From Eledone cirrhosa (Eukaryota), in the NCBI GenBank assembly GCA_964016885.1, contig OZ024740.1:206150001-206214000 (forward strand): a stretch of 64,000 nt of DNA, given 5' to 3'. Position 1 is the stretch's first letter. Every line of letters begins with the position of its first letter. Shown piece after piece: positions 19,900 to 61,300 of the stretch. Under the pieces are notes generated by a model that was given only the letters and a program-made list of their open reading frames with translations, searched no databases and was not told where the DNA came from. The position numbers and the translations under genes are program-made.

Positions 19900-21300
19900 C
19901 CAATATACACACACCTTATGACTCTCCCCATACCCCACAATGAGCTACTAGTTGCCACTTTCCCTCAATGACACCCCATGACCAAAATAACTTTTGTGTA
20001 TGGGGAGCCCCCCAAGGGCTATGATCATCTGACTTAACAAATCTCAAATTGTGATAACCTGTCCAAACTAAGCCTGTGTAGAAAACGACTTGATCCATCA
20101 ATTTTATACCTCTGTAGTTATTCCTTTCCAGAGCATCATCTTTTTGTAACATTTAATGATTAACAGCTACACTAGTCACTGGGTATGACACCATTATGAA
20201 TTAACTGATTGACTACCTTTAGTCCTACTTCATTAAATAATTTCAATATCTTAGTGTCTGACTTGGGTAGTGCAGCAGCTTTTCCACTTTTTATATACCT
20301 AATTCCCTCTTTGAACTTATAACTGGCCTCTCTATTGTCTACTGGGAGTAGTCCCTCTTCTTTCCACTCATTCTCCACATTCATCAACCTCTCATAACAA
20401 TTTCTGGCCTATTTCTTCTGAATGTTAGTAAAGCTAAGTGCCAACAAAATCCCAATTCACACTGACACTGCTTTGCAATACAGAACACTCCATGCTTCTG
20501 ATTTTCATGTTGCAGGACATAAGCAAACCATTTGCTTTCAGCTTCTCTTTTAGTTACTTGATATTGTTCTTTACTACCTCCATTTTTCTGACTGTTTCTT
20601 AGCTTCAATGGTTTTATCTACAGCACTATTCCATCACCAAGTCCCCTGTAATATAGCCGGTACTTACAGCAGGTTATCACATAGAAACTTCTGTATCCAT
20701 CTCTCACCTCTGATCATATACATAATGTAGCGTTTGTCTGACCTTTAGCTTTCAGGATATCCTACATTTTTTATTCTGATGTAATTAATTAGTTAAACTG
20801 GGTCATGACTATTTATAACAATCTGTTTATCCTATTTTCTAATGAGCATGAAATCAATCTGGCTGGTTGGCCAGTATCCTGAATTAGTATTACAAATTAC
20901 TTAAGACATTTGCCTCACAGAATTCTAGAAATCTTGATCAATTTCTTGAGTCATATCCATAACAGCCATTCTGGTACCGCATAACATGTCCATTGAAGTC
21001 ATCTGAAAGTGGTTCTCATAGAAACAGTTATTTTGTCTTTACTTAGTCCTTATTTTAGTGCATAAGTGGATATATAACTGTTGTCATTCTATTGTGTAGG
21101 TCTATTGTGAGATTGATAAATCTGTCACATACTCTAACCACCTCAATTACCTTATCTATTCACTTCTCAGCTAGTAAAATGCCTCGTCCACCTATTGCCA
21201 TTAAGTTCCTATTTATTGTAATAAACTAAATTGGTTCATTCATGATTTATAGGACAAATAAACTTACTAGATATTACAATCTCTAGAAGACAGGGTCATT
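19900..21300 (-). mobile_element. Decayed RTE LINE
   Basis: DALERNNYRGIKLMDQV, SQIDFML and related motifs shared with 51545-54672. Confidence 0.75.
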
Positions 21301-21665
21301 TATACCACTGATTGTAAGTAGCACTCACTGGCAACCAGTAAAGCATTTAAAATAAGATTAACTGTTTTCTCCTGTAGACACTTCAGACTTAGTCTTTTAT
21401 TAGCTTTTGTTGCTGCACAAACTGCTCCTAACTAATCCCTAGAAACTGTACAAACAAAACAAGATGTAAATATTTTAATAATTTATTCAGAGAAAATTTA
21501 CATACAATATCAGTGTTATAAAAATCCATGGGTATGTACAAGTGAAACCACATAAATGAAAAAAAAAACTTTCTGCAGTCATTGGATAAGTTTGTGATTG
21601 AATGTGTGAAACAAAATGACATGATCAGTTGTCACCCAATATCTATGGAAGCCACAACTGTCTCA

Positions 21666-21703
21666 TCAGTTGCTATCACTAAAAGTCTTTTTCTTCCCTG
21701 ATC
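21666..21703 (-). CDS. NCL: Nucleolin exon 14 (last coding exon)
   Basis: GSGKKKTFSDSN*, resembling the nucleolin GKKTKFE-type terminus. Confidence 0.85.
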
Positions 21704-24700
21704 CTTAAAATGATAAAATAAAATTTAAAAATTAAGGAAATTAGTATTAAATTATCTACATGATTTATAGTCCACAACAGCATTGAGGGTATGTTTGAAT
21801 TTTTCCCACTGACCAATCACTCCCCAGGCCCTAAACATCCCAGAAATCGATGGAGCTCACCATGGAGTTCGTATTCTGACTAATTTTTCGCCTCAGTTTT
21901 AGACATATCATGCAACATCAGAGGCTTTGTTAATTTTTTTAATAAGTTTTATTAGCACCCTCGATGCTGTCACGGATAGTTAATTAGTATTAAATTATGT
22001 ATATCAAACTTCAAATACAAAACAAAATCAAAAGTGAAAATGTTTTACATACCACCACGTCTACCGCCACCACCACCACGTCTACCACCACCACCGCGTC
22101 CACCATAACCTCCACCTCGTTTTCCACCAAAACCTGCACAGACAAATTTGAAACTAAGAAAATCATGAACCTAAACTATCTTAAGACAATCTAATACCTT
22201 TCTCATTTTATACAAAGTTTAAGTATGATTGAATTATTTAGTGATGCTTTAAAATGAATGGTTAATAGTAATTTAGTTGGATTTAGTTTACCAAATAGTC
22301 AACAAATGATAACTTAATTCCAAAAGAGGAAGTGGTTATTGATATTACTATGTACTGAGCAACTCAGTAATTACAACAATTTTATATTTAGACAAATATA
22401 GAAGTCCAATTCATCACCATTTTTACATCTGCTTTTCCATATTGGCATAGATTATACAAGACTCTTTTGAGATATATTCTGCAAGGTAAGATGCTCTTGC
22501 TAATGCCAACTCATACTTTATTTATAAGTATGATATATACCTCTCATCATTGTTGCACAGTTATACTATGGGCACATAAACAAATGTCAAATTGCTTTAC
22601 AGTGTTGATATGAAGATATATACACACAAGCTTCATTGCTTTTCCATTTTCCATCATAGAAACTTTTTTCTCAACAGGGTTATTTGTTCCCTAAACTTCT
22701 TCCATCTTATTCCTAGTATAGCTACTATGCTCTCAGAGTAACTACCACCACTGCTAATTAGGTCTCCTAGGTAACATAAGCTATCAAATACTTCTAGAGT
22801 ATTTTCATGAGACTGGAAAAACTATATTTCATCAGGTCTCTTATTACCAACTATCCCTGTACAACTGCCACATACAAAGTCTACCTTTTCTGTTAATCTG
22901 CTTTGTATCCCACTACACCTCTTGTGTACTCATATTATACACTGTGTACATTGTACACCGTTCGTTTCAACTCCTTTTTTACATATCGAGCATTATACTT
23001 CCTTGAAGAAATCAGTGTTTTATCTTCTTTCCTACTTACTAAAACACTTTAGTCTTTGCTAAATTCACTTTGAGCCCTTTTAATTTTAAGTTATTTCTGC
23101 AAAGATTTTTTCTCTAGATCTTCCATATTCGGCAATTCATCAGTATACAGAAGTTCTTAAGGGCAGCCAATTTTAAACTCCTTTATTATGGCATGATCTG
23201 GAACACTATGTTAAACATGAGTAGGCTGAGGATAAAGTCATAATGAACACTCACTTCCCATTGAATTCCTCATTACTTACTGTCACTTTACTGAGAAGGT
23301 TGCTGTACATAGCTTACACTGCTTTCATAAGCTGCACATCTACACCAAGTTTCTTTAAGGGTCACCAGATAACATGTTAAAGGTCTTCTCCATGGCAACA
23401 AAAGCTATATATAGTGGTTTATACTTAGCTTAGGAACTTTGATAGTACTCCTGTCTGGCACAAATCCAAACTGCATTCATCTAATTTGACTCTTGCCTTA
23501 ATTAGTTGTGCTAATGACAATTATCTGAATATATTCTTACTAACAAGCTTTCTTCATAAAAGCTGTAAAAAGGACAGCCTAAGAGACAAAGCATGCCCAT
23601 ATTTAACCTATAAGCATTTACATTATTCTATATATACTATTGTATTTTTGTGGTAAAGACTTTATCTCACATAACATCAAATCTTTCAAACCAACACCAT
23701 ATACAATCAATTTATTATTTTGCACTAAATATGTTTCAATTTAATCTAAGAGAAGATAAATCAAAATATACTACTGTACCTCCACTCCTTCCACCACCAT
23801 CACCTCTGTTTCTGGCAAAGCAACAGCGAACAGTTCTCCCGTCAATAGTAGTGTCACCATATTTTCTCAAAGCCTTTTTTGCTTTTGAAACAGACTCAAA
23901 TTCCACAAAGGCAAGTCTAAAAAAAGAAATTATATCCCATTTTCAAAGCAATCAACATAACTGGCATTAAAAGAAAAATACTCAAATATACAGCCAAATC
24001 CCATCCATCCTAAACAATGTGTTGTCTTGTTTATTTCCTTATGGGTATAGGAAACTGAACAAGGAACAGTAAGTTATAAATTTCTATTTCAACACAAACT
24101 GTTGAACTGTAGAATGTTTTAACTGAAGTGAGTATGTAATAATAATTGTTACTACATTAGGCACAAGGCCAGCAATTTGAAGGGGAGGGAATAGTTGATT
24201 AAATCGACCCCGTGAGAATGAAAGGCTAAGCTAACCTCAGCAGGATTTGAACTCAGAACGTAAGGAGATGTAACTCTATTCCGCAAAGCATGGTGCCCAA
24301 CGCTCTACCAATACTGCCAATCCACTCCCCTTGAGCATGTAATAATAATAACATTGAACATAATTCTGTGGTGACAGAAAGAATTCTGTACTCCTCAAAC
24401 TTCAAACGTGTTGAATAGAACTATGTATCCCCGTTTAGCTGAAGCATACTATATAGGCAAAAAACATGGGCACACTTGAAACACGTGATTGTGATATGAT
24501 TGGCTGTCATTAAATAATTACACAGCACTTGTTAGATAACACTCAATATGAGTTCAATACACGACACAATACAAAACAATGTAGTTGTTTTTACTCACCC
24601 TTTAGGCTTTCCTGAATCTGAAAAAACTGGTAATCGAATAGCAGTAGCATCTTTGAAAACAGACTGCAAAGAATCCTCTGTTGAGTCATAGGATAGATTT

Positions 24701-27700
24701 CTTAATAGTAGTACATTAGATTCCTCAGGTTCTTCAATTGAGAAAGATAAAGATAATTGTATTAACATATGCACAAAGATGTTTCAACACAAATTTCCAT
24801 CAAATAAAGATTCTTCAGTTTGATCTTGCATTGAAAGAGAGAAAAGAAAACCATATTAATACAAGCACAAGTATTTTACAACACTTTCCATGTTGGTACG
24901 GTTTGGACAAGTCATCACAGTCAAAGCCATTTCTCATTTGGAATTGTTACCCTCCTAAACAAATTAAGGACCAAAGAAAAGACTGGTATTTTATGGACCC
25001 CAAATAAAGCTTGATAAGATTTGAACTCAGTCAGAACAAATTATATTCCCAACGTAATGTAGTCCTTTTATCAAGAACTCTCTAGACCAGTGGTTCTTAA
25101 CCTGGGGTGCCAGCACCCCCATGTCATGCTAGATTCAGTTCTTAGGGGGTGGGGGCAGAGAAGAAGCAATATTTTCAAAAATTTGTGTCTATTAATCATA
25201 GTCGTGATCATCATTTTTACATCCACTTTTCCATGCTTGCATGGGTTGGACGGGTCCTTCTCAGCACGGCATCTCTCCACTTGTCATGTTCCTTCATCTT
25301 AGTATTAATAAATAATCAGCTACCATTATTAATTAAATAATAGCAGCTAAGTAGCTGATAATTTGACCTGAAAATTCAAATTCTTTTGTCTTATGTGCTA
25401 GACCTATGGGTGCAGGATGGAATTTAGAAATCTCAAGGGAAGGTGGGAGCAGGGGATAGAAAAAGGTTAAGAACCTCTGCTCTAGATCATATTGAGATAA
25501 ATGATTTACCTGGTTAACAAATTCTTCACTGCTAACATCCTTCAACTCTCAAACCAGCAAGGGAATGTTCAGATAATTTACTACACCAAATAAAGTAGAC
25601 TTAACACAGACCCCTACTTCTTAAGCTGTGAAATGCTGGACAATATGTATTCAACACAAATAGAATAATCATAAAGAGAAAATAACTAACGATTAGTTTA
25701 AACTAATTTGAAGCTAAATTTTTTTCAAATAATAGTCAAATAAAGAAAAACAAAAAATACCATCGTTAAAGCCTCTTCTTTTCTGTGAACCACCTGCATA
25801 ATCCAAGAACAATTTTCGGTCCCCAAGCTCAACCCCTTGTTTGTTTTCAACGGCATCTTTTACATAATCAGCACTATCAAACTCAACATAGGCAAACCTG
25901 AAGAAACAAAAACAAGTACATTACATACATGAAATAAATTTTCCAATGTTATTTACAGCTAAATCATTTCTATTAAAATTTATTTATTTTTTACAATGTC
26001 TTTGCTCTACCGATTGCTAACAACTTTATCTGATACTAGCAGTGGTACCCAGCGTTGCACGGGATAATGTATTTTGGAACGCGGGCCACCAACAGACCTA
26101 ATCGTGGAAAAACTGCATGCCTGGACAATATGTAAAGAAACTAAAGATTTTCCTCGATGAAGCAGGAAAAAGGCAGGTTTTCACCTAGGGGATCAAGAAA
26201 ATGAATTTTTTTATGTGCATAATATGCCTTGAAATTTCGGGAAAATCGGCTAGACTCAAAAAAGCCCTAAAAAGCTGAAAAAAATGCAGTTTTTCACCTA
26301 ATGCGAGCTCTAGGGGATCAAAAAGTTGAATTTTTTTATGTGCATAACACTCCCTGAAATATAGGTAATACACATGTAAAGTTTGAAAAAGATCGGTTGG
26401 GTACTTCTCAGGTGTCACACACACACACATACATACATACATCGTTCCTCAGTTTTATATACATATATAGATTAAAATAACAGATTAAAATTTAAGCAAA
26501 GAATCGTTGCTTTCACCCTTAACGGGATCTTCTGAAACTAAAAACATCAATCTGTGAACGCAGAAGTAAATATTTCGAAAAACGTTGCAACCGAAGGAAA
26601 ACAGGAAGACGATATTTTGGTTCGTGAAGACGTTCCCTGGCAATGAATGGAAAATAGCGAACATAATACGTCATCAATGTTCGTCAGAATGTCGTAATGC
26701 AGACAGACAGCCAGGCATACAGACAGATATTATAAGAGCGCGACGGAGATGGATAACCGGCGCCTAACACCCCTTTAACAACAGAAAATTGAAAAATAAA
26801 AGCTGCAGTTAATATCTTTAGACCGCAAGGAATATATAAATGCAAGTTTGAAGTCAATCAGAGTAGAAATGTGGATTTGTATAGACTGCAAAAATGAGGA
26901 CACACACACACAGACAACATCAGTTTTATATATATATATGGCAAAGAGTAGAACATTAAAACAAATGATTATGTAATTCAATAAAGCTTACCCTCTGTGT
27001 GAATTTCCTTTGAATGGAATTCTCACATTTCGTGCATCAGGAAATATCTCCATTAGAGTGCTCCTAATACTATCTTCAGAATCGTCAAATGACAGATTCT
27101 TCACAAATAGTGATTTTGAATCATCCTCTGAAAAAACAAAATTTCATAAACTTAAATTTATATTGTTCACTAAACAACAGGTCATGGTATTCTGAACGAT
27201 AAAGAAAAAGAAAAATCAAGAAAGCAAGCCAAATCAACATACCCTTAGTTCTTTCTGGCTTTGATGCTCCTAAAGGTCTACCCTTTTCAAATGCTAATGT
27301 AGACCCTTTAAATTCAAGATCTTTCATTGCTAAAACTGTATCGAGATCATCTGGATTAGCTAAATCAATGTGTGCAAACCTATAAAAGAAAGCAACAGAA
27401 ATGAATTATGGCAGAGAAATGGTGACAAGCAGAAAGTGTAAAATGGTTAATAAACTTATTGGAATACGCACATTCTATCATCACGCTTGCGAACAGCTGT
27501 AAATTCAATTCCCTTCTTTTTAAGAAACTTTTCAAATTTCTCAACTGACGCTCCTAGGGGAACATTTCTGCACATAACTGTCACAGTTTCTGAAAGAGGA
27601 TTAGAAAATAAGGTTGTTAGCAATAAATTGAAGGGGCATAGCATATTGGTTAAAGGTCAGGGTTCACAATCGTAAGGCTGTGAGACTGATTCCTGGACAG

Positions 27701-30700
27701 GCTGGCAAACTTTATTTCATATTGCTTCAGTGTCCACCCGGCTGACAAAAATGTGTTATACCTGTAATTCAAGGGACCAGCCTTGTCACAACTTGTGTCA
27801 TGCTCAGTTTCCCTGAGAACTATGTTAAGGCTGCACATGTCTGTGGAATGCTCAGCCACTTATAAGTTAATTTCATGAGCAGACAGTATCGATTGAATCA
27901 GCTGGAGCATTCATCATTGGAAACTAGAGATGTCCAATAATAGAGTAACTCATGAATAACGTCTTCTTCTTCACCCACTTATTCTTGAGAAGGTCGTGTG
28001 GGCAGAGTCCTCAAACACTCCTTCCAGTGGGTCCTGTCAGAAGCAACTGTCTCCAACTGATCCAGCTGGATCTCCAAGCATGACCAGCCAAGCTCATGGA
28101 TGTTATCCAACCATCTTGCTCAAGGTCGATCCCTGGGTCTCTTGCCGGTTGGTCTTGCCCATAGAATCTGTCCAGCAATTCTTTCCTGAGACATGTCAGT
28201 TATAAAATATGTGTTCATTTCGGTAAGGGTCAGACGCCATGCTTTGAAGCATAGAGTTACCTCCCTTTATGATCTGAGTTCAAATCCCGCCGAGGTTAAC
28301 TTTGCCTTTCATCCTTACGGGGTCGATAAAATAAAGTACCAGTAATGCACTGGAATAATTGCTGGCCTTGTGCCAAAAGTAGAAACAATTATAATTTCTA
28401 TTAATCAACAAGAGTCATAGACAGAGAGGTTTGTATTCAAAATTTAAATATCCTTACCATCAACTTTAGGTTTTTTTGCATCTTTACCAGTATCTGCTTC
28501 TGCTTTACGCTTCTTAGCATCTTTTGCACCTGATGTCAATAAAAAAAAACAGATTTTACAGATATGTCCCATATAGGTAAGACTTTATTTCAAACTAATT
28601 CACAAATGGAAACCCCAGCATACATTGTTCTTATGAAACACAAACAATCATAGACAAAGCAAACTATACTTAAAGGAAACTTCATACACAAATCATATGA
28701 AGTGGTGTTCAATATATTAAATAGCATTATATAAGTACATATAGTATTCACCTCCACCACAACCTTCCAATACAATTCCCATGGGCACAGGCTGAAGAAT
28801 ACATCTGGTGTGCAAAACCTTCACCCCCCTTCCACACGCCCACCTCCCTAATCCTAACACTGTAAGGTGGTTGTGTATGTGTCACAACAAAAAGCACCCA
28901 GCCCACACTGTAAAGTGGTCGTGTAGGTGTCACGCCAAAAATCACCCAGTACTCATTGTAAATGTGGTTGGCATTAGGAAGAGCATCCAGGCGTAGGAAC
29001 CAAGCGAAAATTGGTTCTGTATGAGCAAGACATGATCATCTGACCTCAACTTGCCTCAAATAGGACAACCCGTGTAACCCATGCTAGCATGGAAAATGGA
29101 CGTTAACCCTTTAGCATTTACATTACTCTATATTTACTATTGTATTTTTTAGGTAAAGGCTTTATCTCACATAACTATCTCACATATTGAAACTCTGAGA
29201 TTTTGATATTATTTATTTTGAGAACAGCCAGTTACGGCTGGTTTAAACAGAAAGAAGTGAGAGAATTTTGGCCAGATATGGCCAGTTTAAATGCTAAAGG
29301 GTTAAATGGTGATGATAATGATGGTGATATCTAAAAATGTAAGATAATGCAGCAAATATTCTGAATATGTAATACCAATTAATTAGCAGACAGAAAAAGG
29401 TGAATAAATTGAGAATGTTAGAGAGAAGCCACAAATTGGGAGAATCTTCAGAAAGTAACTTGAAAATACTTACCATCTTTCTGTTTAGCACCTGTTTTTC
29501 CATTGGCTTTTGATTTAGGAGAATCATCTAATTTTAAAAGAGAGAGAATTTATGGTTTTAGTTTAATACTAGAAAAACAAAGTTGTTAGTGAAACTATCA
29601 TCAACCATTAACTGAATAAAAAGACTGTATACCTTCACTAGATTCTTCTTCTTCACTAGAATCTTCTTCATCCGACTCACTTGACTCAGCAGCTACTGCA
29701 GTCTTTTTTACTACTTTTTCTTCTTCTTCTTCTTCTTCTTCCTCCTCCTCTTCATCATCATCATCATCGTCGCCGTCGTCATCTTCATCGTTGTCACTCT
29801 CTTCATCCTCGCTGCTTTCTTCATCTTCATCTTCCTCTTCTTCACTGTCACTAGATTCGACTTTCTTTTTGGCTGTGTACAAAACAAAAATAAATATTTA
29901 TTGAAAGAACAAAGCTGTATATATATATATATACACTCACATAATATCGACACTAATACACACACACTTCACTTTGCGTTCCAAAATCGTTACCAAGACT
30001 ACCAAACAGTTTATCCTATTTACTTTCATTTAACTTTGCCTTTCATCCTTACGGGGTCGATAAAATAAAGTACCAGTAATATACTGGGTAATTGCTGGCC
30101 TTGTGCCTAACGTAGAAACAATTATTTTCATTTACATTTATGGCGGTGAATTGGCAGTATCGGTAGAGGGTTGGACGCCATGCTTTCTAGCATAGTTTCG
30201 TTCTTTTACGGTCTGAGTTCAAATCCCGTTGAGGTTAACTTTGCTTTTCATCCTTATGGGGTCGATAAAATAAAGTATCAGTAATGTACTGGGTAATTGC
30301 TGGCCTTGTGCCAAAAAGTAGAAACAATTATTTTCATTTACATGGACTACCTTTTATTTTCTGTATCTATCCTTTGTGATCCTGTCTTTATTTTTGTACT
30401 CCTGAAGGGCTAAAGCCTGACACGTCAAACTTAATTTCCCCTTTTCCACATAAAGTGTGAAACTAATAAGACTTTTTATACCTGTTTGTTGTTTGCTTGA
30501 ACTATATTTATATATATAATCTCTACTCTATTTAACACAGAAAATTCCATAGAATTTCTTCAAATTGTATGCTAGATCTAATATAGAATAAGATCTTCTA
30601 CCTTAGACATCTCACATCCTTTAAAAAACACAACATTCAACAAACTACTGAAAATAATGCACTGTGCTTCACATATCAGATTCATAATCATCACCATCTA

Positions 30701-33700
30701 ACATCCGTTTTCCCTGAGAGCAGCTGTTGAGTGGATCATAACAGACCAAATCTGTATTTAATTGGAGCAACAGACCTTTTCATATACTCTGTAAAGTGGT
30801 TGTGGTTGGTGATAAGTCGGTCATCCAACTGCAGAAAACCTGCCAAACAAAGGATTTAGAGGACTCTTTGGCTGTGAGAATGACAACCTCCCCAGCACTA
30901 GTGCCACAACAAAATGTATCTGATGGACTCTGCTAAGTGTGGGAATACATGTATGTATTAATAATTGAAAAACAACCTAGATATGTAAGAAACTACATAC
31001 AACCACAAAAATAATACACCTGAACACTACATCATCCAATTACTATTTCTTCCCCCATCAAAAATGTTTGCAGTATGAGACCAATATATGCTACAGAAAT
31101 GCTTATATGATGAGTAGAATTTTCATGATATAAGCCTAATGAAACATTTATATGTCTACATACCAGGAGTAAATTATTACACATTATCACTCTATCACTC
31201 TGATCGATCGACACGATCCCAGACTCCATTCACTTGCCGAGTTGGGTGAACCTTGTCAAATTGGACCAAGGAAATTTTTTGTTTCCGTTGCTGATACAAA
31301 GAGCAATATGAAATAAAGTGTCTTGCTCAAGGACACAATGCATCACCCGGTCCAAGAATTAAACTTGCAACTTCACAATTGCGAAGCCACATGCCTTCAC
31401 AATTAACAATATTACACACATATAATATTCATCAAATGTTACCAGATGGATCTTTGCCTTTTGGCAGCTTCTTAGCTTTTATGGCAGCTGGAACTTCCTA
31501 AAAATAAAGAAATATATATTTTTTTAATAAGCATATTTAAAAATACACATTTTTTTTATTCCATAAATTTATTTATAATTAATGTCTCCTAGCTTTGATA
31601 CAACATAGACAAGATGAAAAATACAATAAAATAAATAAGAACTTACAACTTCCATTTCTTCTGATTCTGAAGCAGAATCATCTGAAGATTCTTCAGGTTC
31701 TACAGGTTTGGCAGACTTGGCTGACTTTTGGGGAGTCTAATACAAAAGATTAAAAAAAAAAATTATTAATTGAAACAAATTTTGACACAGAAGTAGATCA
31801 TAAAACAGACATAGCATAGCAACTGGAACATATTCAGAATAAACTCAACTTTTACACTAGATCTTAATTTATACCAATACAGCAAGACATTCTGCTCTCA
31901 CTTCCAGAGATGTCTTTCATGCTTAACATCCTGTACCACACGAAACAGCATTAGCAAGACATTCTTGAAAACTACAAAACAGCTACAAAACTATGACTGC
32001 ATTGCATTAAAAATTTCATTTTAAGTTACTGTAAATTTTCACAATGATGTCCACTAGTAAAAATACTATAAACATCTGAATTAAACCCATTTAAAAAATA
32101 TTTTTCCACTAAATCATTACAGGATGTTATGGGTTAATTGATTAATAGACCCATCCAACCCATGCAAGCATGGAAAAGCAGACATAAAACATTGTTGATG
32201 ATGATGATGATAATGACGATGATACTTTGTGGACATTTATTATCAAACATAGACTTATGCTGAAAGTATTATCTCAAAGTTGTGTACACTACTCTCTCCC
32301 TCCAAAAAAACAAAATGCAGGGAAATTTATTTTTATATAATATTCACATATCTGCACAGTGATCAGATCAGTTGAAAGTCATCAGTATTAGAAATTTAAA
32401 AGAAACATGTGAGAAAAAATACTTACAAGTTGTCAATTATAAATTATTGACAGGATAAACAATGTTTCACAAGATTAAAATAGTTGGCTAAAAATGTTGT
32501 TAAGTGCTTGAATTTCATGAACTATTTTATCCTTTTAGCATTTACATTACTATTATATTTTCATGGTAAAGGTTTTCTCTCACATAATTTTGATGATGAT
32601 ATTATTTATTTTGAGAACAATACCTTAATGTCAATATGAGTGGCCGGTTTGAACAGAAAAAGGTGAGAGAATTCTGTCCGGATATGGCCAGTTTAAATAC
32701 TAAAGAGTTTAGGATCAACCAATCATTTAAGGATTAACCAAACATTTTAGGATCAACCAATCATTTAAGGATCAACCAATCATTTAAGGATCAACCAATC
32801 ATTTAAGGATCAATCAATCATTTAAGGATCAATCATTTAAGGATCAATCAATCATTTAAGGATCAACCAATCATTTAATGATTAACCAATCATTTTATAG
32901 CAACAAACGGTATGTAAATATTTTGACACAATGGTTGACAGTTCAAAAAAAGTGTTTGTGAAAAAAAACTGTTCAGAATGTTCAAGTTCACATTTTTCCA
33001 AATATTTCTTGTTATTTTAACTGCGACATCATGAGATATTGAAATCCTATTATTGCTCGCATCTAACCAGTGCCAAATTTATACCATTGTGCTTAGGTGT
33101 GTTTAAGCATAGAGCCCCGTTGGCAGGGGAGGGAGGGGGGAGGGCTATCTTCCTGCAAAAAAAAAATGTTTACCTCCTTCAGGGCCCAAGTAAGGGGCAT
33201 CATAACTTAACTAGTACAGGGCCTCATTTGTCCTAAATCCAGCACTGCATCTAAATTAGTTTCAAACAATGAAATCAAAACCTAAGCATTAATATGTAAG
33301 CTCAAACATTACAAAAGCTAAAACATAAGTTGGATAAACAAATCTAGATTTTTATTATAGGCACCTGCATGTTAATATTTTAATATTCTATGAGATATAA
33401 TATTCATACTCTTTCTAAATACTATTCTCTTGAGGATAAAAATGTTCATACAATCCTGTAAGAAAACTATTCTGACCATTAATTCTCATTCATGACAAAG
33501 CAATTAAGATAACTGAACAAAGTGCAATGACAGACAACATAAAATGTAATGGTATATATAACTGAAAAAAGTGCATAATCTTTACCTCATACCCCGGCCT
33601 CATGGCGCAGCTTAGTCCTCACCGTAGGCTCACAATACCAGTTAGTGGATGTTGTTGTAAGACCAGGTTGACACCAGATTGCACACAAACCAGGAATCCA

Positions 33701-35945
33701 TTGCAGCATTCAGTATCATGTGATACTCGGTACCAAAATGATGTTTGCACGGTAACCATTTATCGAAACACGGCCAAATCAAACAGATATCGTAGCCAAT
33801 GGCTTATTTTCGGTAGCCCTCGAGCCAATGGCATTACTGACGGACACACGAGGAACCACGACAGCCAAATTCACCACCGAATTGGTGAAACGGTACACGT
33901 ACCAAGCGACACCATAAATGCAAGAATTTACGAAACCACGGTCTTCCTTACTTAATCAGTATAATACAATGATTTATCATTATTGTAAATCAAAGAGTTT
34001 CAAAAATTATTTATTCCTTTTTCTTTTTTAATGAATATTTGTATGTGTGAAATAGAAGTGACTCAATTTTGTTAACAGAGATCTACGTCAGAATACATGT
34101 TGAATAGTATTTAAATACACACAGAAATCATAACTGCTTATATCTACAGCAGTTTTGTTATTTTTATAGGAATGTAGATAGTTATCTTTCTGAATTGTTT
34201 CAAACAAGTGACTTTAAATGTTGTTGTGATAGGCCCCTTGGCTCCATGGATTTTCATGGGTTGTTTTGTGGCCTGAAATTAAGTCACTTGACTTGCCATA
34301 CTGAGCTGAACCTAATTGTCAAGTGGGGTGTGACTCATTTCAATAGTCCCTAAATTCTAGAGCCAGCTGGATTGTCCGGGGTTGATGTGAAAAGGTAAGA
34401 TGGCCTTCCTCTTTTCCCTGATGTAAAATGCTATCTTATTCGGGACACCATAGCTAGAGACTCTTTTGCTCCTTCCAATATCCTGGATGCTATGGTGAAG
34501 GTCAAAGCATCCACAGCTGAATGGAATGAAATTCTAAAATTGCATGAATTATCAGCAAACTAATATTCTCAACCCCAGTGTCATTGGAGACATTTGGGGG
34601 GTAACTGAGCTGCTAACAATGAGGTTCTTAATGTTGGTGGCTCACCTTACTAATGTATCAGGTGATGCCAGTGATGGTGCTTCGGTATTCCAGTGCTGGT
34701 ATTATTATAGAAAACACCCCCCACCGATTGTAGCAGGAAATCATTTTTTTTCCTTTGTTTTTTTTTGTGTATGCTATCAATTAAACTTACCTCATATGTT
34801 ACAAAGGATTTTTTTCCTGGAAAACGGAGGAGGGGAAAGGATGTCCTCGGACTCTCCCCCCCCCCTCTATGGGGGTTAGGATTAGAGTTAGGGGGTAAAT
34901 AAAACTCTGGGAGGAAGGGAAAGTTCAAGAGTTCATTCCTCTTTTCCCCTCCATTTTCCATGAAAACAAGAAGTCCTTTGCAACATGTTCCGAGGTAAGA
35001 TTAGTTGGTAGTACAGGAAAAATCCGAGGGAAAAAATGGTAAAGAAAACTCTGGAGAGGGGGGTGGGGGTAGCACAGAAAAAACCCAAGTTATTCCCACA
35101 GAAGTGGAGATGTTTTTTCTATAAATTTACCAAGTGCCTTAACATTGCTATCACCTTCGGCAATACTGAGTGTCAATTTATCTAAAACATTATTAAACGG
35201 ACATAACAGAGCTCCTTCTTGTGATTCAGTATGCTGGGATCACCCCTCCTCCTGTTTTCTTCTTTTCATTTAAGTATATCATAGAATAAACATGTTTCTT
35301 TGTTCCGGACAATAACGTATTATTTATGAACTGGGTATAATTGCTTAAAGTCCATGTAAATATATCTGAAATTACCATTTTAAGGAACTAACCCATGTAA
35401 AAACTCGATATTATCCATGTTAACCGAAATCTGTGTATTTTCCCATTACATTTGTTTATTTGTTTTTATATTTGTTTATAAGCGTGTATGTATGTATGTT
35501 TGTTCTTCTGGTTTTATAATTTTATAAGTTTTTACCAATAGAGAGAGAGTCGGTTTCTAACATAAACAAGCCTCTCTCATAGGAATTAGGTCGATATGTG
35601 TGCATATCTGCATACGTACGTGTGTGCAAGTGTAGATGTTATTGTTTGTGTGTTTGTATGTATATATGTATGTGTGAGTTTTCTCAATACTTATCGCTAT
35701 ACGGAATCTAACAACAGAAATCTGTAATGATTAATTTAGTATTAGTGGGAGGAGATGTTAAAATATTCACTCTCGCATTTCCCATTAAATGTCCTTAAAC
35801 ATGTAGACTCCGTCTATTTGCATGGATTTCAGGTTTTATATTACAATTTTAACCTGCTTACAAATAAATCAATATATTGAAAATATTTCGCTTCTAAATA
35901 AGACAGGAAACTAACATAACATACCTTATTCTTTTTAGCAGTCAT
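21666..35945 (-). CDS. NCL: Nucleolin, 14 coding exons (whole-gene span including introns)
   Basis: All exons are GT-AG bounded and phase-compatible. Domain order: basic/acidic N-terminus, long D/E tract, bipartite NLS, three RRMs, GAR domain, KKKTFSDSN C-terminus. Confidence 0.9.
22053..22133 (-). CDS. NCL: Nucleolin exon 13 (GAR domain)
   Basis: GFGGKRGGGYGGRGGGGRRGGGGGRRG; CAG acceptor, GTATG donor. Confidence 0.9.
22410..23520 (-). mobile_element. Decayed RTE LINE in nucleolin intron 12
   Basis: MQFGFVP, FDSLCYLGDLISSGG and Cys-rich remnants, followed by an RTE tail. Confidence 0.75.
23780..23916 (-). CDS. NCL: Nucleolin exon 12 (RRM3 C-half)
   Basis: (KG)LAFVEFESVSKAKKAL...IDGRTVRCCFA, containing RNP1. 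Confidence 0.9.
24143..24330 (-). mobile_element. tRNA-derived SINE (older copy)
   Basis: Homologous to the 13203 SINE. Confidence 0.75.
24599..24731 (-). CDS. NCL: Nucleolin exon 11 (RRM3 N-half)
   Basis: SNVLLLRNLSYDSTEDSLQSVFKDATAIRLP..SGKPKG. Confidence 0.9.
25088..25479. mobile_element. hAT-Charlie-type MITE with a nested RTE tail
   Basis: TIRs CAGTGGTTCTTAACCT / AGGTTAAGAACCTCTG; 8-bp TSD CTCTAGAC/CTCTAGAT. Confidence 0.85.
25761..25897 (-). CDS. NCL: Nucleolin exon 10 (RRM2 C-half)
   Basis: (RG)FAYVEFDSADYVKDAVENKQGVELGDRKLFLDYAG. Confidence 0.9.
26036..26471 (-). mobile_element. Non-autonomous Helitron
   Basis: A|TC 5' end at 26471; 3' hairpin CCCGTGCAACGCTGGG followed by CTAG|T; internal microsatellite. 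Confidence 0.8.
26992..27127 (-). CDS. NCL: Nucleolin exon 9 (RRM2 N-half)
   Basis: DSKSLFVKNLSFDDSEDSIRSTLMEIFPDARNVRIP..SHRG. Confidence 0.9.
27243..27379 (-). CDS. NCL: Nucleolin exon 8 (RRM1 C-half)
   Basis: FAHIDLANPDDLDTVLAMKDLEFKGSTLAFEKGR. Confidence 0.88.
27472..27589 (-). CDS. NCL: Nucleolin exon 7 (RRM1 N-half)
   Basis: TVTVMCRNVPLGASVEKFEKFLKKKGIEFTAVRKRDDR; GTGCGT donor gives the required phase 2. Confidence 0.85.
28220..28392 (+). mobile_element. tRNA-derived SINE
   Basis: Near identical to the 13203 copy. Confidence 0.85.
28458..28529 (-). CDS. NCL: Nucleolin exon 6 (bipartite NLS)
   Basis: AKKRKAEADTGKDAKKPKVD. Confidence 0.88.
29107..29301. mobile_element. piggyBac-type MITE inserted in an RTE tail
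   Basis: Perfect 14-bp TIR CCCTTTAGCATTTA with TTAA TSD; further copies at 5504, ~23605 and ~32530. Confidence 0.88.
29474..29527 (-). CDS. NCL: Nucleolin exon 5
   Basis: DDSPKSKANGKTGAKQKD; GTAAGT donor. Confidence 0.85.
29633..29872 (-). CDS. NCL: Nucleolin exon 4 (acidic tract)
   Basis: KKKVESSDSEEEEDEDEE...EEESSE; phase 1-1. Confidence 0.9.
30030..30332 (+). mobile_element. Two tandem tRNA-derived SINE copies
   Basis: Truncated copy 30030-30125 and full copy 30141-30330, flanked by repeated TTTCATTTA. Confidence 0.85.
31443..31497 (-). CDS. NCL: Nucleolin exon 3
   Basis: EVPAAIKAKKLPKGKDPS; phase 0-1. Confidence 0.85.
31647..31736 (-). CDS. NCL: Nucleolin exon 2
   Basis: TPQKSAKSAKPVEPEESSDDSASESEEMEV; GTAAGT donor. 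Confidence 0.88.
32708..32894. repeat. 19-bp minisatellite (TAAGGATCAACCAATCATT)n, about 10 copies
   Basis: Visible tandem units, one of them shortened. Confidence 0.9.
33068..33247. mobile_element. hAT-like MITE
   Basis: Imperfect TIR CAGTGCCAAATTTA / TAAATCCAGCACTG; 8-bp TSD CATCTAAC/CATCTAAA. Confidence 0.65.
33586..33950 (-). other. Candidate structured poison exon in nucleolin intron 1
   Basis: AG acceptor at 33952-33951 followed by in-frame TAA; donors GAG|GTAAAG (33585) and GGG|GTATGA (33592); CpG-rich with several hairpins. Confidence 0.45.
34340..34700 (+). mobile_element. Highly decayed CRE-clade LINE fragment
   Basis: Remnants similar to 41300-41940 (LTNVSGD, .FQ). Confidence 0.5.
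35925..35945 (-). CDS. NCL: Nucleolin exon 1 (start codon)
   Basis: ATG ACT GCT AAA AAG AAT AAG|GTATGT = MTAKKNK, phase 0 into exon 2. Confidence 0.75.
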
Positions 35946-36239
35946 TTCACTTTGTTTTCAGGAATATTATATCGTTCAAAATTCCACTTGTTTTGAAATT
36001 TCTCTCTAAAAGATGAGTCGAAGACCTAATTAGTATCAACGTATAGCAACTCATGTAGTTTCGTATCTACTTAAAAAATGATGTTTATATTTGATTTTAT
36101 TGTTAAATAAATAAATAAAAATTATTATTATTTATTAATAAAGAAATAATTAATTTTAATGTTATTAAATTATTTATTGCGGAGTAATGAAAATCTGGAT
36201 AAGTTACTTATAATCACCAACAACCTTATCAATCGGTTG

Positions 36240-36416
36240 GGCGGTGGATTGGCAGTATTGGTAGAGGGGTTGACGCATAGAGTTACGACCCTTGCCATTC
36301 TGAGTTCAAATCCCGCCGAGGTTAACTTTGCCTTTCTACCTTACGGGCTCGATAAAATAAAGTATTAGTAATGCACTCGGTAATTTCTGGCCTTGTGCCA
36401 AAAGTAGAAACAATTA
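36240..36416 (+). mobile_element. tRNA-derived SINE upstream of nucleolin
   Basis: Homologous to the 13203 copy. Confidence 0.85.
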
Positions 36417-36889
36417 TCAAAATTAGTTGACCCTAAACACTTATTTGCTAAATGTTATCAGATTTAGTTATGTAAAGACATTTATAACAATTTTTATGTT
36501 CTATTTAAGACATAAGAGCTGGATGAAAACTAAAAAATGCCGACTAGATATATATTTTTAGATATATATATATTATTCACAGCTGTATAAATAACATTAC
36601 TAGTTGTTTATAATTCTTATTATATTTTATAAGGTCAAACAATACTAGTAACCAAGATAAAATATATATTATACTCATTGTATTAATGTTTTTGTCCGTT
36701 TGTCACACAAACACTAGTCTCTTGCAAAATCGTTCTTTATAGAATTAATGGAAAGCAATTAAAATTGTTTTTATTCATTACCCACACACACGTGTACATG
36801 TATATCGAGATAATAATTGAAACGGGTGTGTGCCTTGATGTTCTCACTCTTTCACTCACTGCCTCCGTCTCTCTCACTATTATATGCAA

Positions 36890-37050
36890 ATGAAAGCCCA
36901 CGCGCTGGCAATCCTCGCGGTCCCGGAAGATGTCGAGGGAAACGCGTTGGAAGAGCCATTCCAGTTCGCGAGGCTCACACCTGCGAGTAACCAACTCCGT
37001 GTCGATGGTGGTGAGTAGGGAGATGGTCCTACAGCCCATAAAATCAACTC
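36890..37050 (-). mobile_element. CRE-clade LINE 3' fragment
   Basis: EPRELEWLFQRVSLDIFR. Confidence 0.7.
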
Positions 37051-37461
37051 AGCAGCTTCTGGTCCTCAAGCAATTATTCCCGAGAAGTTTTAACAGGCAG
37101 AGATCTTCTAAGAAGTCAAATCTCTCTAATATGTTGTTTTTTTTTTTTTTTAAGCTGTTAATTGTTCGAACGACTGCGTACTGTTATGTGGTGTTTAGCT
37201 AAATTCATCATTATCAAGCAGGCCTCTAGTCAGAGACATCCCTCGCCTTTTTCTTTTAAAACAACAAGGAGTAATTTAAGGGAGATCTGGCTGCTATTTC
37301 TAGCAGGTTGAACGATCACATAAATGTGCCCTTGCTAGATTATCACACGTGTTAATCCGACACGGAAGAGCGGTGCCTGTTATCACTTTAGTCTTTGACA
37401 CACTTTTAAAATTGTCTCAACAAAGGGTGGATAAAAGTCGACAATCTAAAAGCAAAACATT

Positions 37462-37638
37462 GGGCACTACAACGGAATTGGCTGTCAGAAGTGAAAGTAG
37501 AAGAATGTGGTGTCACGTATTTGCAACTTGAAAAATATGAATTCTACATTATACCCCAACGTAAATGGAATTAATCATCGCGATATTTCCATCGCTACCG
37601 CTAATGGTGTCGATTAGAAAAGGCACATTTCTAGAAAC
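37462..37638 (+). mobile_element. Deleted Merlin transposon remnant
   Basis: TIR-like GGCACTACAACGG..GCTGTCAG, plus MNSTLYPNVNGINHRDISIATA and VSIRKGTFLE matching the transposase at 47707. Confidence 0.75.
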
Positions 37639-58397: not shown

Positions 58398-61300
58398 ATG
58401 TTAGATTTAGGGTTAGTGTTAGGGTAAGTTTTACTGTTAATGGTAAGTTTATTGTTAGTGACTGTGTTACTGTTAGCATTACTGTCACTGTTAGTGTTAC
58501 TGTAACTGTTACTCTTACTGTTACTGTTTGCATTACTGTCTGCATCAGCGTTAGCATTTACATAAGCGTCTATGTAAGCTTTTGTGTTAGTGTCTATGTA
58601 GACTGGTGTTAGCATCTGCGTTAGTGTTTGGATTAGCCTTAGTGTTTGCGTAAGTGTCAGCGTCTGCATTGGTGATAGTGATTGTGTCAGCATTTCCCTT
58701 AGCGTCTGAGTCAACATTAGTGTTTGTTTCAGTGCCTACGTCTACGTCAGCTTCTGAGTCAGCATTATCATTAGCGTCCGCGTCAGCATGCACGTCAGCA
58801 TTTGCATTAGTGTTTGAGTCAGTGTTAGCATCAACGTTTGCATTTGTGTAGGGGTTAGCATTTGTGTCAGCACCAGCATTCACATTCACATTAGCGTTTG
58901 CGACAGCATTTCCTTTAACGTCTTTGTCAGCATTTCCGTTAGCGTCTGTGTCAGTGTTTCCGTTAGCTTCTACGTCAGTGTTTACGTTAGCGTCTGTGTC
59001 AGTGTTTCCGTTAGCTTCTACGTCAGTGTTTACGTTAGCGTCTGTGTCAGTGTTTCCGTTAGCTTCTACGTCAGTGTTTACGTTAGCGTCTGTGTCAGTG
59101 TTTCCGTTAGCTTCTACGTCAGCATTTCCGTTAGCATCTATGTCAGTGTTTCCGTTAGCTTCTACGTCAGCATTTTCGACCGCGTCAGTATTTACATTTA
59201 CATCAGCATCAGCGTTTCAGTTAACGTCTGTTTACGTTAGCGTCTGTGTCAGCGTTTACGTTAGCGTCTGTGTCAGCGTTTCCGTAACGGCTACGTCAGC
59301 GTTTTCCGTTAGCATTGGCGTTTCCATTAACCTTTCCTGTGGCGTCCGCATCATTGCAGCGTCTGCATCTCCCATATAGGCGTTAACTTCACCATTTGCA
59401 TTTACCTTAGCCCTAGCGTCCGCATCAGCATTTGCGTTAGCGTCAGCATACACGTCAGCACCGGCAAAACTGCCTCAACATTTGCGTCAGCCTTAGCTTG
59501 GCTTTGGCTTCAGCAATCCGCATCAGCAATTGCGTTTTGGAGATCAGCTTCGGCGGTAAGGGTAAACGCTAACTTCTACGCCTGCTTCTACGTAACAACT
59601 ACGTCAGCGTTTTGTTAGCTTCTACGTCAGCGTTTACGTTAGCTTCTACGTCAGCATCTACGTTAGCTTCTACATCAGCATCTACGTTAGCTTCTATGTC
59701 AGCGTATACGTTAACATCTATGTTATCGTTTACGTTAGCTTCTACATCAGCATCTACATTAGCTTCTACGTCAGCGCTTACATTAGTGTCTGTGTCAGCG
59801 TTTGTGTTAGCTTCTACGTCAGCGTCTGTATTTACATCTACATCAGCGTCAGCGTTTACATTTGCGTCTGTATGATCGTTTACGTTAGCGTCTGTGTCAA
59901 CATGTGTTAGCATCTGTGTCAGCGTTTATGTTAGCGTCTGCGTCAGTGTTTATATTAACATCTGCGTCAGTGTTTACGTTAGCATCTGTGTTAACGTGTG
60001 TTAGCATCTGTGTCAGCGTTTATGTTAGCGTCTGCGTCAGTGTTTATATTAACATCTGCGTCAGTGTTTACGTTAGCATCTGTGTCAACGTGTGTTAGCA
60101 TCTGTGTCAGCGTTTATGTTAGCGTCTGCATCAGTGTTTATATTAACATCTGCGTCAGTGTTTACGTTAGCATCTGTGTTAACGTGTGTTAGCATCTGTG
60201 TCAGCATTTTCATTAGTGTTTGCATCAGTGTTTGCTTTAGCTTCTACGTCAATGTTTACGTCTGCGTTAAGGTTCACATTAGCATCGCTGTCATCGTTTG
60301 CGTCAGCATTTACGTTTGCTTTAACATTTGCATCAACATTTGTGTCTGTGTTTACATTAGTGTCTGCATTTGCTTTAGTGTTTGCATCAGCGTGAACATT
60401 TGTGTCAGTGTCCACATCAGTGTTAGAGTCTGTGTAGCATTTACATCAGCGTGTGCGTCAGAGTCTTTGTCAGCATTCGCCTTTGCACCTGTATCAGTAT
60501 TCACGTTAGTGTTTGTGTCAGCATAAGCAATTGTGTCAACATTTGCGCTAGCGTTTGTGCCAGCATAGCCATCTTCGTCAGTGTCAGCGTTGGCGTTAGT
60601 GTTTCCATTAGTGTTCGTATTTGATTTTGTATTAGTGTTAGCATTTTTGTTAGTGTTAGTGTTCAGGTTAGTGTTAGTGTTAGTGTTTAGGTTAATGTTG
60701 ACTTAGTTTTCTGGTTAGTGTTAGTTTTCAGATTAGGACTCGTGTTACTTTTAGTGTTAGTGCTCAGGTTAGTGGTTTATGGTAGTTTTAGTTTTAGTGT
60801 TCAGGTTAATGTTCGTGTTAATGTCAGTTTTAGTGTTAGTGTTTACGGAAGTGTTGGTTTTAGTGTTAGTGTTAGTGTTAGTGTTTTATTTTGTGTTAAT
60901 GTTTGTGTTAGTGTTTCCATTAGTGTTAGTGCTAGTCTTTGTTTTTCTGTTAATGTTAGTGTTTGTTTTAGTGTTGAGGTTAATGTTAGCTTAGTTTTCT
61001 GGTTAGTATCAGTTTTAGTGTTAGTGTTCAGGTTAGTGTTAGTGTTTTTTTTAGTGTTAGTTTTTATGGTAGTGTTAGTGTTAGTGCTCATATCAGTGTT
61101 AGTGTTTGTGTTACTGTTTATGGTAGTGTTAGTTTTAGTGCTAGTGTTTAGGTTAATGTTAGTTTTAGTGTAAGTGTTCAGGTTAGTGTTAGTGTTAATG
61201 TTAGTTTTAGTGTTAAGGTTAGTGTTAGAGATTGTGTTAGTGTTTGTTTTTGTGTTAATATTTGTGTTAGTATCTCTGTTAGCATTAGTGATTGATGTTT

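What the first reader, a model, noticed from the sequence alone, without database searches (positions are those of the whole stretch)
33586..33952. CpG-rich, multi-hairpin ~365-nt element in nucleolin intron 1 that would splice as a poison exon
Seen: a compositional island with about 19 CpGs against almost none in the AT-rich flanks, and no TE hallmarks. It holds several short inverted repeats (33712-33727, 33794-33804, 33870-33889, 33892-33903) and a duplicated AGCCAATGGC. In the gene's sense it starts at CTGATTAAG|TAA, a stop directly in frame after MTAKKNK; the next AG also gives a stop after 55 codons. It ends exactly at tandem donors GGG|GTATGA and GAG|GTAAAG. Established: many RNA-binding proteins autoregulate through conserved stop-containing exons coupled to NMD, and nucleolin binds stem-loops in pre-rRNA spacers. 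Inference: a nucleolin-sensing structured RNA switch (pre-rRNA-spacer-like decoy) or an unannotated intronic ncRNA. The polypyrimidine tract is weak.
Basis: partly seen in the sequence, partly recalled or inferred. Interest (0 to 1): 0.75.

Follow-up and report, generated by a model that had tools for sequence, protein, structure and literature searches.

The report
Conserved second donor in octopus nucleolin
All three nucleolin genes of this octopus-type genome keep the same 400-letter non-coding stretch in their first intron, better conserved than the protein-coding parts and centred on a pair of predicted splice sites, so it likely serves as a switch that diverts nucleolin RNA into a form that would be destroyed.

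Summary
It occurs three times in the 3-Gb genome, once in intron 1 of each of three nucleolin paralogues (88% and 83% identical). Its 3' half and the 64 nt after the donor differ by 3-8% between paralogues, against 26-38% at fourfold-degenerate sites. Both tandem donors are invariant and score like real donors. The proposed acceptor scores below all 33 real acceptors and its in-frame TAA is not conserved. Folding is no better than shuffles, there is no covariation, no Rfam match, no rDNA likeness and no nucleolin recognition motif. RefSeq proteins of two Octopus species include isoforms that start at the exon-2 methionine, so an alternative 5' structure exists there. Best reading (0.42): a distal alternative 5' splice site that extends exon 1 into an early stop, working like L10ARE-type feedback. 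Close rival (0.30): an internal promoter and first exon (two invariant CCAAT boxes). No RNA was laid, so splicing, decay and the sensor are untested. The scan noted this element before in another octopus genome.

The parts
35925..35945 (-). First coding exon of nucleolin (MTAKKNK) with the strong proximal donor
   Evidence: Same exon in paralogues A and B; Octopus and Argonauta proteins start MA(A/G)KKNK or MTPRKNK; donor is rank 1 in intron 1 in all three
35776..35921 (-). Moderately conserved start of intron 1; a CACGTG box in paralogues A and B is changed in this copy
   Evidence: blastn W-B 82% over 50 nt and 80% over 35 nt; A-B 70% over 193 nt
34270..35050 (.). Repeat-rich, copy-specific spacer with a strong cryptic donor (GT at 34790)
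   Evidence: High summed contig depth in DNA-like runs, a 67% match elsewhere on C15, donor score 11.3; limits approximate
33948..33952 (-).
   Evidence: Score -0.6; CAA in A, other letters in B
33708..33912 (-). 5' half of the conserved element: motifs kept, spacers variable
   Evidence: 8-15% substitutions between paralogues, 2-5 gap openings
33823..33832 (+). CCAAT (NF-Y-type) box 1; on the RNA strand a near-palindromic 10-mer
   Evidence: Invariant in three paralogues
33794..33803 (+). CCAAT box 2, 29 bp from box 1 (30 in A and B)
   Evidence: Invariant; two consensus boxes in 0.2% of shuffles, any repeated 10-mer in 5%
33586..33707 (-). 3' half: near-invariant block ending at the donors
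   Evidence: 3, 4 and 7 substitutions in about 121 nt; also held by contigs of organisms B-F
33629..33677 (-). 49 nt identical in all three paralogues; holds four (A/U)C(A/U)(A/U)C words (33671-33648) and three of the four CUGGU words
33601..33603 (-). ATG kept in all three paralogues; its frame to exon 2 is not kept
   Evidence: Phase 2/0 for the two donors in W and A, 0/1 in B after a 2-nt deletion
33580..33595 (-). Tandem predicted donors 7 nt apart (exon ends 33593 and 33586)
   Evidence: Invariant GT in all three; scores 9.0 and 7.2, ranks 4 and 8 of 228 GT in intron 1
33510..33585 (-). Conserved intron flank after the donors, with an invariant U-tract-CAG at 33570-33562
   Evidence: 3, 3 and 6 substitutions in the 71 nt 33592-33522; alignment
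31647..31736 (-). Exon 2; its Met (31655-31653) is the start of the short RefSeq isoforms

Best explanation
The element is a conserved non-coding block in intron 1 of all three nucleolin paralogues that likely acts as a regulated distal 5' splice site, whose use would extend exon 1 into an early stop and would likely send the message to nonsense-mediated decay as negative feedback on nucleolin level. Shown: the conservation, the invariant donor pair, the lack of a conserved acceptor, and a stop 33-38 codons after the start if the exon-1 donor is skipped. Inferred: when a sensing protein is abundant it binds the single-stranded words upstream of the donors (UGGU/UGGC array, UCAAC/ACAAC/ACAUC cluster) and shifts U1 from the exon-1 donor to the donors 2.3 kb downstream (1.6 and 2.0 kb in A and B), which join exon 2. 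The sensor is predicted to be nucleolin or an SR protein; this step is the weakest. The 5' half may in addition be a DNA element (CCAAT pair).
For: One copy per paralogue, same intron. 3' half and donor flank 2.5-8.5% divergent against 24/89, 35/91 and 22/86 at fourfold sites and 15-18% over coding exons. Conservation is highest on both sides of the donors, as at regulated splice sites (established knowledge; alternative introns of C. elegans rp genes are unusually conserved, PMC4937301 section 16). Donors score in the range of 27 real donors. No conserved acceptor. Read-through stops after 34, 33 and 38 codons. Frameshifting indels, including 2 nt between the ATG and the donors in B-type copies of this genome and organism B, show that frame does not matter. 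Sense-strand words: UGG(U/C) 13/12/12 against 5.7 expected (P 0.0007); (A/U)C(A/U)(A/U)C 4/5/5 in the 3' half against 0.8-0.9 (P 0.004 or less); both chosen after looking. RefSeq XP_014779559.1, XP_036359142.1 and XP_029636669.1 start at the exon-2 Met, 31-34 residues short.
Against: No transcript was seen here, so donor use is unshown. The two competing donors would be 1.6-2.3 kb apart across an unconserved spacer that in this copy holds stronger cryptic donors (11.3 and 9.6). Two invariant CCAAT boxes and CpG retention (14 of 18 in the core against 1 of 9 in flanks, Fisher P 0.003; P 0.11 under a two-class constraint model) fit a promoter at least as well. The short RefSeq isoforms are known only as proteins; they fit any alternative 5' end and may not involve this element. 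The word enrichments are post hoc (family-wise P 0.08 for the best 4-mer, 0.58 for 5-mers), and the paralogues are not independent samples. No nucleolin recognition element is present. A stop so near the start may escape decay (recalled). Gene conversion between neighbours A and B could add to their likeness, though not easily to that of the copy on C1.
Confidence: 0.42

Rival explanations
1. Internal promoter and alternative first exon: the 5' half binds NF-Y and bHLH factors, transcription starts near 33740-33700, and a short exon splices by the tandem donors to exon 2, giving a nucleolin without its basic first 7-34 residues or a uORF-damped message.
For: A donor without an acceptor is what a first exon needs. 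Two invariant CCAAT consensus boxes 29-30 bp apart (P 0.002 in shuffles). Patchy motif conservation of the 5' half. CpG kept in the core while flanks lost them; octopus methylation lies on gene bodies and spares many promoters (PMC9476566 passages). The 1.4 kb upstream of exon 1 shows no W-B match, one 20-nt A-B match and no CCAAT consensus in any paralogue. Short isoforms are annotated in two species.
Against: The strongest constraint is on the 3' half and the intron flank, not on the boxes. The ATG's frame is not conserved, and one of two donors 7 nt apart is in frame by chance two times in three. No protein with the predicted MR(P/S)GYE or MKR start among the 17 octopod sequences printed or the one; one search found no short ones. 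The CpG signal drops to P 0.11 under a two-class model. No TATA in the core.
Confidence: 0.3
2. Cassette poison exon with a weak or copy-specific acceptor.
For: An AG lies at about the same aligned place in all three copies; A and B have good acceptors 406-517 nt before the donor (10.3, 7.3, 6.7); every frame of the core holds stops.
Against: In this copy no AG within 520 nt before the donor scores above 2.4, and the lowest of 33 real acceptors scores 2.6. The good sites in A and B are not shared. The proposed 5' end is the least conserved part.
Confidence: 0.12
3. Intronic enhancer only (as for the Myc boxes in mouse nucleolin intron 1); the donors are incidental.
For: CCAAT pair and ACGTG/CTCGTG words; mouse nucleolin is activated through two conserved E-boxes in intron 1 (PMC3141027 passage).
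Against: Does not explain invariant donors at the centre of the most constrained block, the strand-biased words, or the short isoforms; no CACGTG in the core.
Confidence: 0.09
4. A free-standing small RNA (snoRNA-like, or an antisense RNA from the TATA-like word at 33553-33561 on the + strand).
For: An irregular hairpin (33691-33595) and an 8-bp pairing that brackets the conserved block are predicted in all three copies, with mostly wobble-compatible changes.
Against: No Rfam match; hairpin z -0.4 to -1.6; covariation equal to controls (221 and 105 of 500 shuffles); box C word in one copy only; longest perfect antisense match to the rDNA unit 10 nt; the upstream motif of this genome's U6 and MRP genes, about 45 nt before TATA, is not at that spacing here.
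Confidence: 0.06

Closest known systems
L10ARE of C. elegans rpl-1 / vertebrate RPL10A (Takei et al. 2016, PMC4937301; abstract and sections 14 and 16 read)
   Same: Ribosome-related RNA-binding protein gene; conserved intronic stretch between two alternative 5' splice sites; one choice gives a premature stop.
   Different: L10ARE is 39 nt, with binding and NMD shown. Here the block is about 400 nt, abuts the distal donors, lies 1.6-2.3 kb from the proximal donor, has a tandem donor, and nothing is shown at RNA level.
Ultra-conserved poison exons of SR proteins and TRA2B (PMC12632421; 11 passages read)
   Same: Very high conservation of a non-coding exon-like block in a gene for an RNA-binding protein, behind a short first coding exon.
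   Different: Those are cassette exons with an acceptor; no conserved acceptor here. Identity is 92-97% over about 190 nt between paralogues, below the definitions quoted in that paper.
Myc E-boxes in intron 1 of mouse nucleolin (PMC3141027, passages citing Greasley 2000)
   Same: Conserved regulatory sequence in nucleolin intron 1; a CACGTG box lies near the start of intron 1 in paralogues A and B.
   Different: The element itself has CCAAT boxes and no CACGTG, and ends at splice donors.
Nucleolin recognition element, (U/G)CCCG(A/G) in a stem-loop (PMC12293987, passages)
   Same: Would be the expected handle for self-binding.
   Different: Absent from all three copies; these proteins show three RRM-like units, so their specificity may differ (inference).

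Membership tests
L10ARE-type alternative-5'-splice-site feedback | Two competing donors in one intron | tested here: met
   By sequence only: proximal donor 11.8, distal 9.0-9.7 and 6.8-7.2 in all three paralogues
L10ARE-type alternative-5'-splice-site feedback | Conserved stretch between the donors | tested here: met
L10ARE-type alternative-5'-splice-site feedback | Premature stop when the distal donor is used | tested here: met
   Stops after 34, 33, 38 codons; expected of any intron read-through
L10ARE-type alternative-5'-splice-site feedback | Distal donor used on exon-1-bearing RNA and raised by NMD block | not testable with these tools
   Needs RNA reads; short RefSeq isoforms are indirect
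L10ARE-type alternative-5'-splice-site feedback | The gene's own protein binds the element | not testable with these tools
   Canonical NRE absent
Cassette poison exon (SR/TRA2B type) | Conserved acceptor | tested here: not met
Cassette poison exon (SR/TRA2B type) | Conserved donor and conserved flank | tested here: met
Alternative promoter / first exon | Promoter motifs upstream of a donor with no acceptor | tested here: met
   CCAAT pair (consensus recalled); no TATA in the core
Alternative promoter / first exon | Protection from CpG decay | tested here: inconclusive
   P 0.0007 to 0.12 by model
Alternative promoter / first exon | Capped 5' ends in the element | not testable with these tools
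   Needs CAGE or RACE
Pre-rRNA-like nucleolin decoy | (U/G)CCCG(A/G) stem-loop or likeness to rDNA spacers | tested here: not met
   (rDNA stretches of C12 and C25 with 18S, 5.8S, 28S and spacers)
Known structured ncRNA (snoRNA, U6/MRP-type gene) | Rfam match, conserved boxes, covarying structure or type-3 promoter | tested here: not met
   three close sequences give little power for covariation, and bipartite H/ACA guides were not searched
Transposable element | Many dispersed copies | tested here: not met
   3 of 3 candidates, all in nucleolin genes; the search skips very common words

The most novel reading that the evidence does not exclude
Octopod nucleolin regulates its own splicing: the protein binds the UGGU/UGGC array in intron 1 and switches all three paralogues to a donor 2 kb downstream, a shared dosage loop for a core ribosome-assembly factor that my searches did not find described.
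Probability: 0.2. Interest if true: 0.65.

Novelty: new member of a known kind. Interest (0 to 1): 0.42.

Why it matters
Nucleolin sets the pace of ribosome assembly, and feedback on its own pre-mRNA did not appear in the searches run (listings and abstract starts only, library lacks most subscription papers). A block kept through a gene triplication and a move to another chromosome marks a control point that one RT-PCR with NMD block and one 5' RACE would resolve. The mechanism class is well known from ribosomal-protein and SR-protein genes, and this scan has already noted the same element in another octopus genome, so the surprise is moderate.

Tried and rejected
Run search: no RNA holder listed; 9 rows hold the stretch or part of it. 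Laying 8 of 12 listed runs on 32950-36230 gave only contigs; none shows a splice joint; exon 2 was outside the stretch. X3 covers intron 1 continuously and holds a paralogue piece, so it reads as DNA. X6-X9 each give one 192-209-nt piece at 33504-33697 whose ends look like restriction-fragment ends (inference), so their lack of cover elsewhere means nothing. Rfam: 0 matches in the window at gathering score; 16 weak matches in 20000-37500 at E up to 10, none in the element. rDNA: best E 6.2. Antisense U6/MRP-type gene: promoter spacing does not fit; U1/U2-type promoters were not fetched. H/ACA reading: an ANANNA word at 33581-33576 is kept, but what follows is too short for a second hairpin (by eye). 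Telomerase template words absent. Coding exon: indels and stops in all frames. Paired CCAAT pattern in the genome: 14 matches, 3 are these copies; the two others I read are repeats and 9 lie in one tandem array, so uninformative. Metagenome scan with a 24-mer: 0. Search for short proteins with another N-terminus: 6 candidates, none scored. In one search three exons and one exon were read in the wrong frame; only values are used. Several intron-start controls are out of register (no GT), so they are rough. Tree of 13 RRM peptides: copy A groups with one Argonauta paralogue at 91/93, below the starred level; the other two are unresolved, so the age of the triplication is only suggested.

Full report
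Host gene. The minus-strand gene at 35945-21663 has 14 exons with GT-AG introns and is open for 482 codons. One exon is 96% identical to Octopus bimaculoides nucleolin. Annotated Octopus and Argonauta proteins mostly begin with the same K-rich seven residues, so 35945-35925 is the first coding exon and the element lies in intron 1 (4188 nt).

Observation. The structural claim is weak: MFE z is -0.88, sliding 110-nt windows over the conserved part reach no shared low z, and three of the four named inverted repeats are altered in the paralogues.

Copies. A genome search gave 3 of 3 candidates: this one on C1 and two on C15, 39 kb apart and facing each other. Each C15 copy lies between the K-rich exon and exon 2 of its own nucleolin paralogue, A and B. 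Apart from the element and the first 50-190 nt, intron 1 of B does not align with the others. It is therefore neither a dispersed repeat nor an rDNA piece.

Constraint. Fourfold-degenerate sites differ at 24/89 (W-A), 35/91 (W-B) and 22/86 (A-B); coding nucleotide identity is 0.82-0.85. The 5' half differs at 8.2, 14.7 and 10.6%; the 3' half at 3.3, 5.8 and 2.5%; the 71 nt from the first donor onward at 4.2, 8.5 and 4.2%. 49 nt are identical in all three (33677-33629). Contigs from organism B (one study) and organisms C-F (one study) carry the block; in C-F 33504-33697 has 12 other letters and 3 gaps in 191. One-base and two-base indels and stops in all frames exclude a coding exon.

Splice signals. 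The TAA is CAA in A. A and B have good acceptors further upstream, at unshared places; this copy has none within 520 nt. The donors after 33593 and 33586 score 9.0 and 7.2 (real donors -0.4 to 12.1) and are invariant; organisms C-F carry a change at 33594 that gives a GAG before the first donor. So the conserved signal is a donor pair without an acceptor.

Indirect sign of an alternative 5' end. RefSeq lists isoforms of O. bimaculoides (457 against 491 aa) and O. sinensis (472/471 against 503/502 aa) that start at the exon-2 methionine; a Logan protein in the cuttlefish cluster starts at the matching methionine (573 against 606 aa), which could also be a cut contig. I saw only proteins, so the link to the element is inferred. 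If the element is the source and those species keep the ATG at 33603, the first donor is the one used, since the second would put that ATG in frame.

Mechanism. A donor without an acceptor is reached either by extending exon 1 or by starting transcription inside the element. For extension with decay: the tightest constraint straddles the donors; frame is free to change; sense-strand word clusters lie just upstream (UGG(U/C) 13 against 5.7; (A/U)C(A/U)(A/U)C 4-5 against 0.8-0.9; UCAAC and CAUC are SRSF3-bound words in PMC10321290, passages; the W-C-W-W-C consensus is recalled); read-through stops at codon 34-39; and the pattern matches rpl-1/RPL10A (PMC4937301). For a promoter: two invariant CCAAT boxes 29-30 bp apart, patchy motif conservation, CpG retention in a copy whose flanks lost CpG (14/18 against 1/9; P 0.003, or 0.11 under a two-class model), the long unconserved spacer with cryptic donors, and no shared motif upstream of exon 1. 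The motif tests were chosen after looking. I put extension with decay at 0.42 and the promoter at 0.30; the two halves may well do one job each. Before I favoured the promoter (45%); two earlier scan notes on another octopus genome gave the alternative-donor reading and the L10ARE paper, and report one use of the donor in an assembly, which I could not check. The frame tolerance, acceptor scoring and word clusters that kept me there are my own tests.

Rejected: nucleolin-recognition-element decoy (motif from PMC12293987; absent); known ncRNA; antisense U6/MRP-type gene.

Literature. Ten searches, seen as listings with abstract starts; none showed splicing feedback of nucleolin or this cephalopod element. 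Read further: PMC4937301 (abstract, sections 14 and 16); passages of PMC12632421, PMC3141027, PMC9476566, PMC12293987 and PMC10321290. No supplements were read; genome-wide tables of cephalopod conserved elements in supplements (for example of PMC9023564, listing only) could contain this block.

Verdict. Interest 0.42.

Noticed in passing
G000:C15:27503300-27522000 (+) and 27535400-27545650 (-); window 21663-35945: Three nucleolin paralogues; two face each other on C15, the third sits on C1. Argonauta has three consecutive accessions, so one copy may have moved in this lineage.
   Followed up: partly
L020, L021, L022, L032 (about 80 to 65 nt before the RNA start): U6 and RNase MRP genes of this genome share a TATGCAAAT(G/T)AG-like word about 45 nt before the TATA box, a likely octopus snRNA promoter element; the RNase P gene lacks a clear match. 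About 30 U6 matches lie in an array on C19.
   Followed up: partly
L035:1960-1750 (minus strand; G000:C3 near 142181000): The same upstream word followed about 200 nt later by an Sm-site-like U-rich run, with no Rfam match there: a possible unlisted small nuclear RNA, or a repeat.
   Followed up: partly
window 35776-35810 and the matching places in L002 and paralogue B: CACGTG E-box about 100-120 nt into intron 1 in A and B, changed in this copy; recalls the Myc boxes of mouse nucleolin intron 1.
   Followed up: partly
window 33570-33562: Invariant U-tract-CAG only 24 nt after the second donor, with a CACTAAC branch-point-like word at 33646-33640; no shared donor or poly(A) signal follows. Unexplained.
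   Followed up: partly
window 33703-33696 with 33529-33522: Invariant 8-bp complementarity that brackets the most conserved block and would loop out both donors; no covariation to support it.
   Followed up: partly
window 30541-30664 and 31977-32078: Intronic blocks 72-73% like paralogue A; the second maps to a different intron in A.
   Followed up: no
window 32711-32895: 19-bp minisatellite (9.9 copies) grown from a unit present once in paralogue A; it holds six CCAAT consensus matches.
   Followed up: no
L015/L018 7074-9949 and L016/L019: Rfam matches for 18S span about 2870 nt and for 28S about 6340 nt, far longer than the models (1831 and 3401): very large expansions or insertions in this rDNA.
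   Followed up: no
window 58650-60300: CpG-rich stretch with o/e 1.2-1.7, stronger than the element.
   Followed up: no
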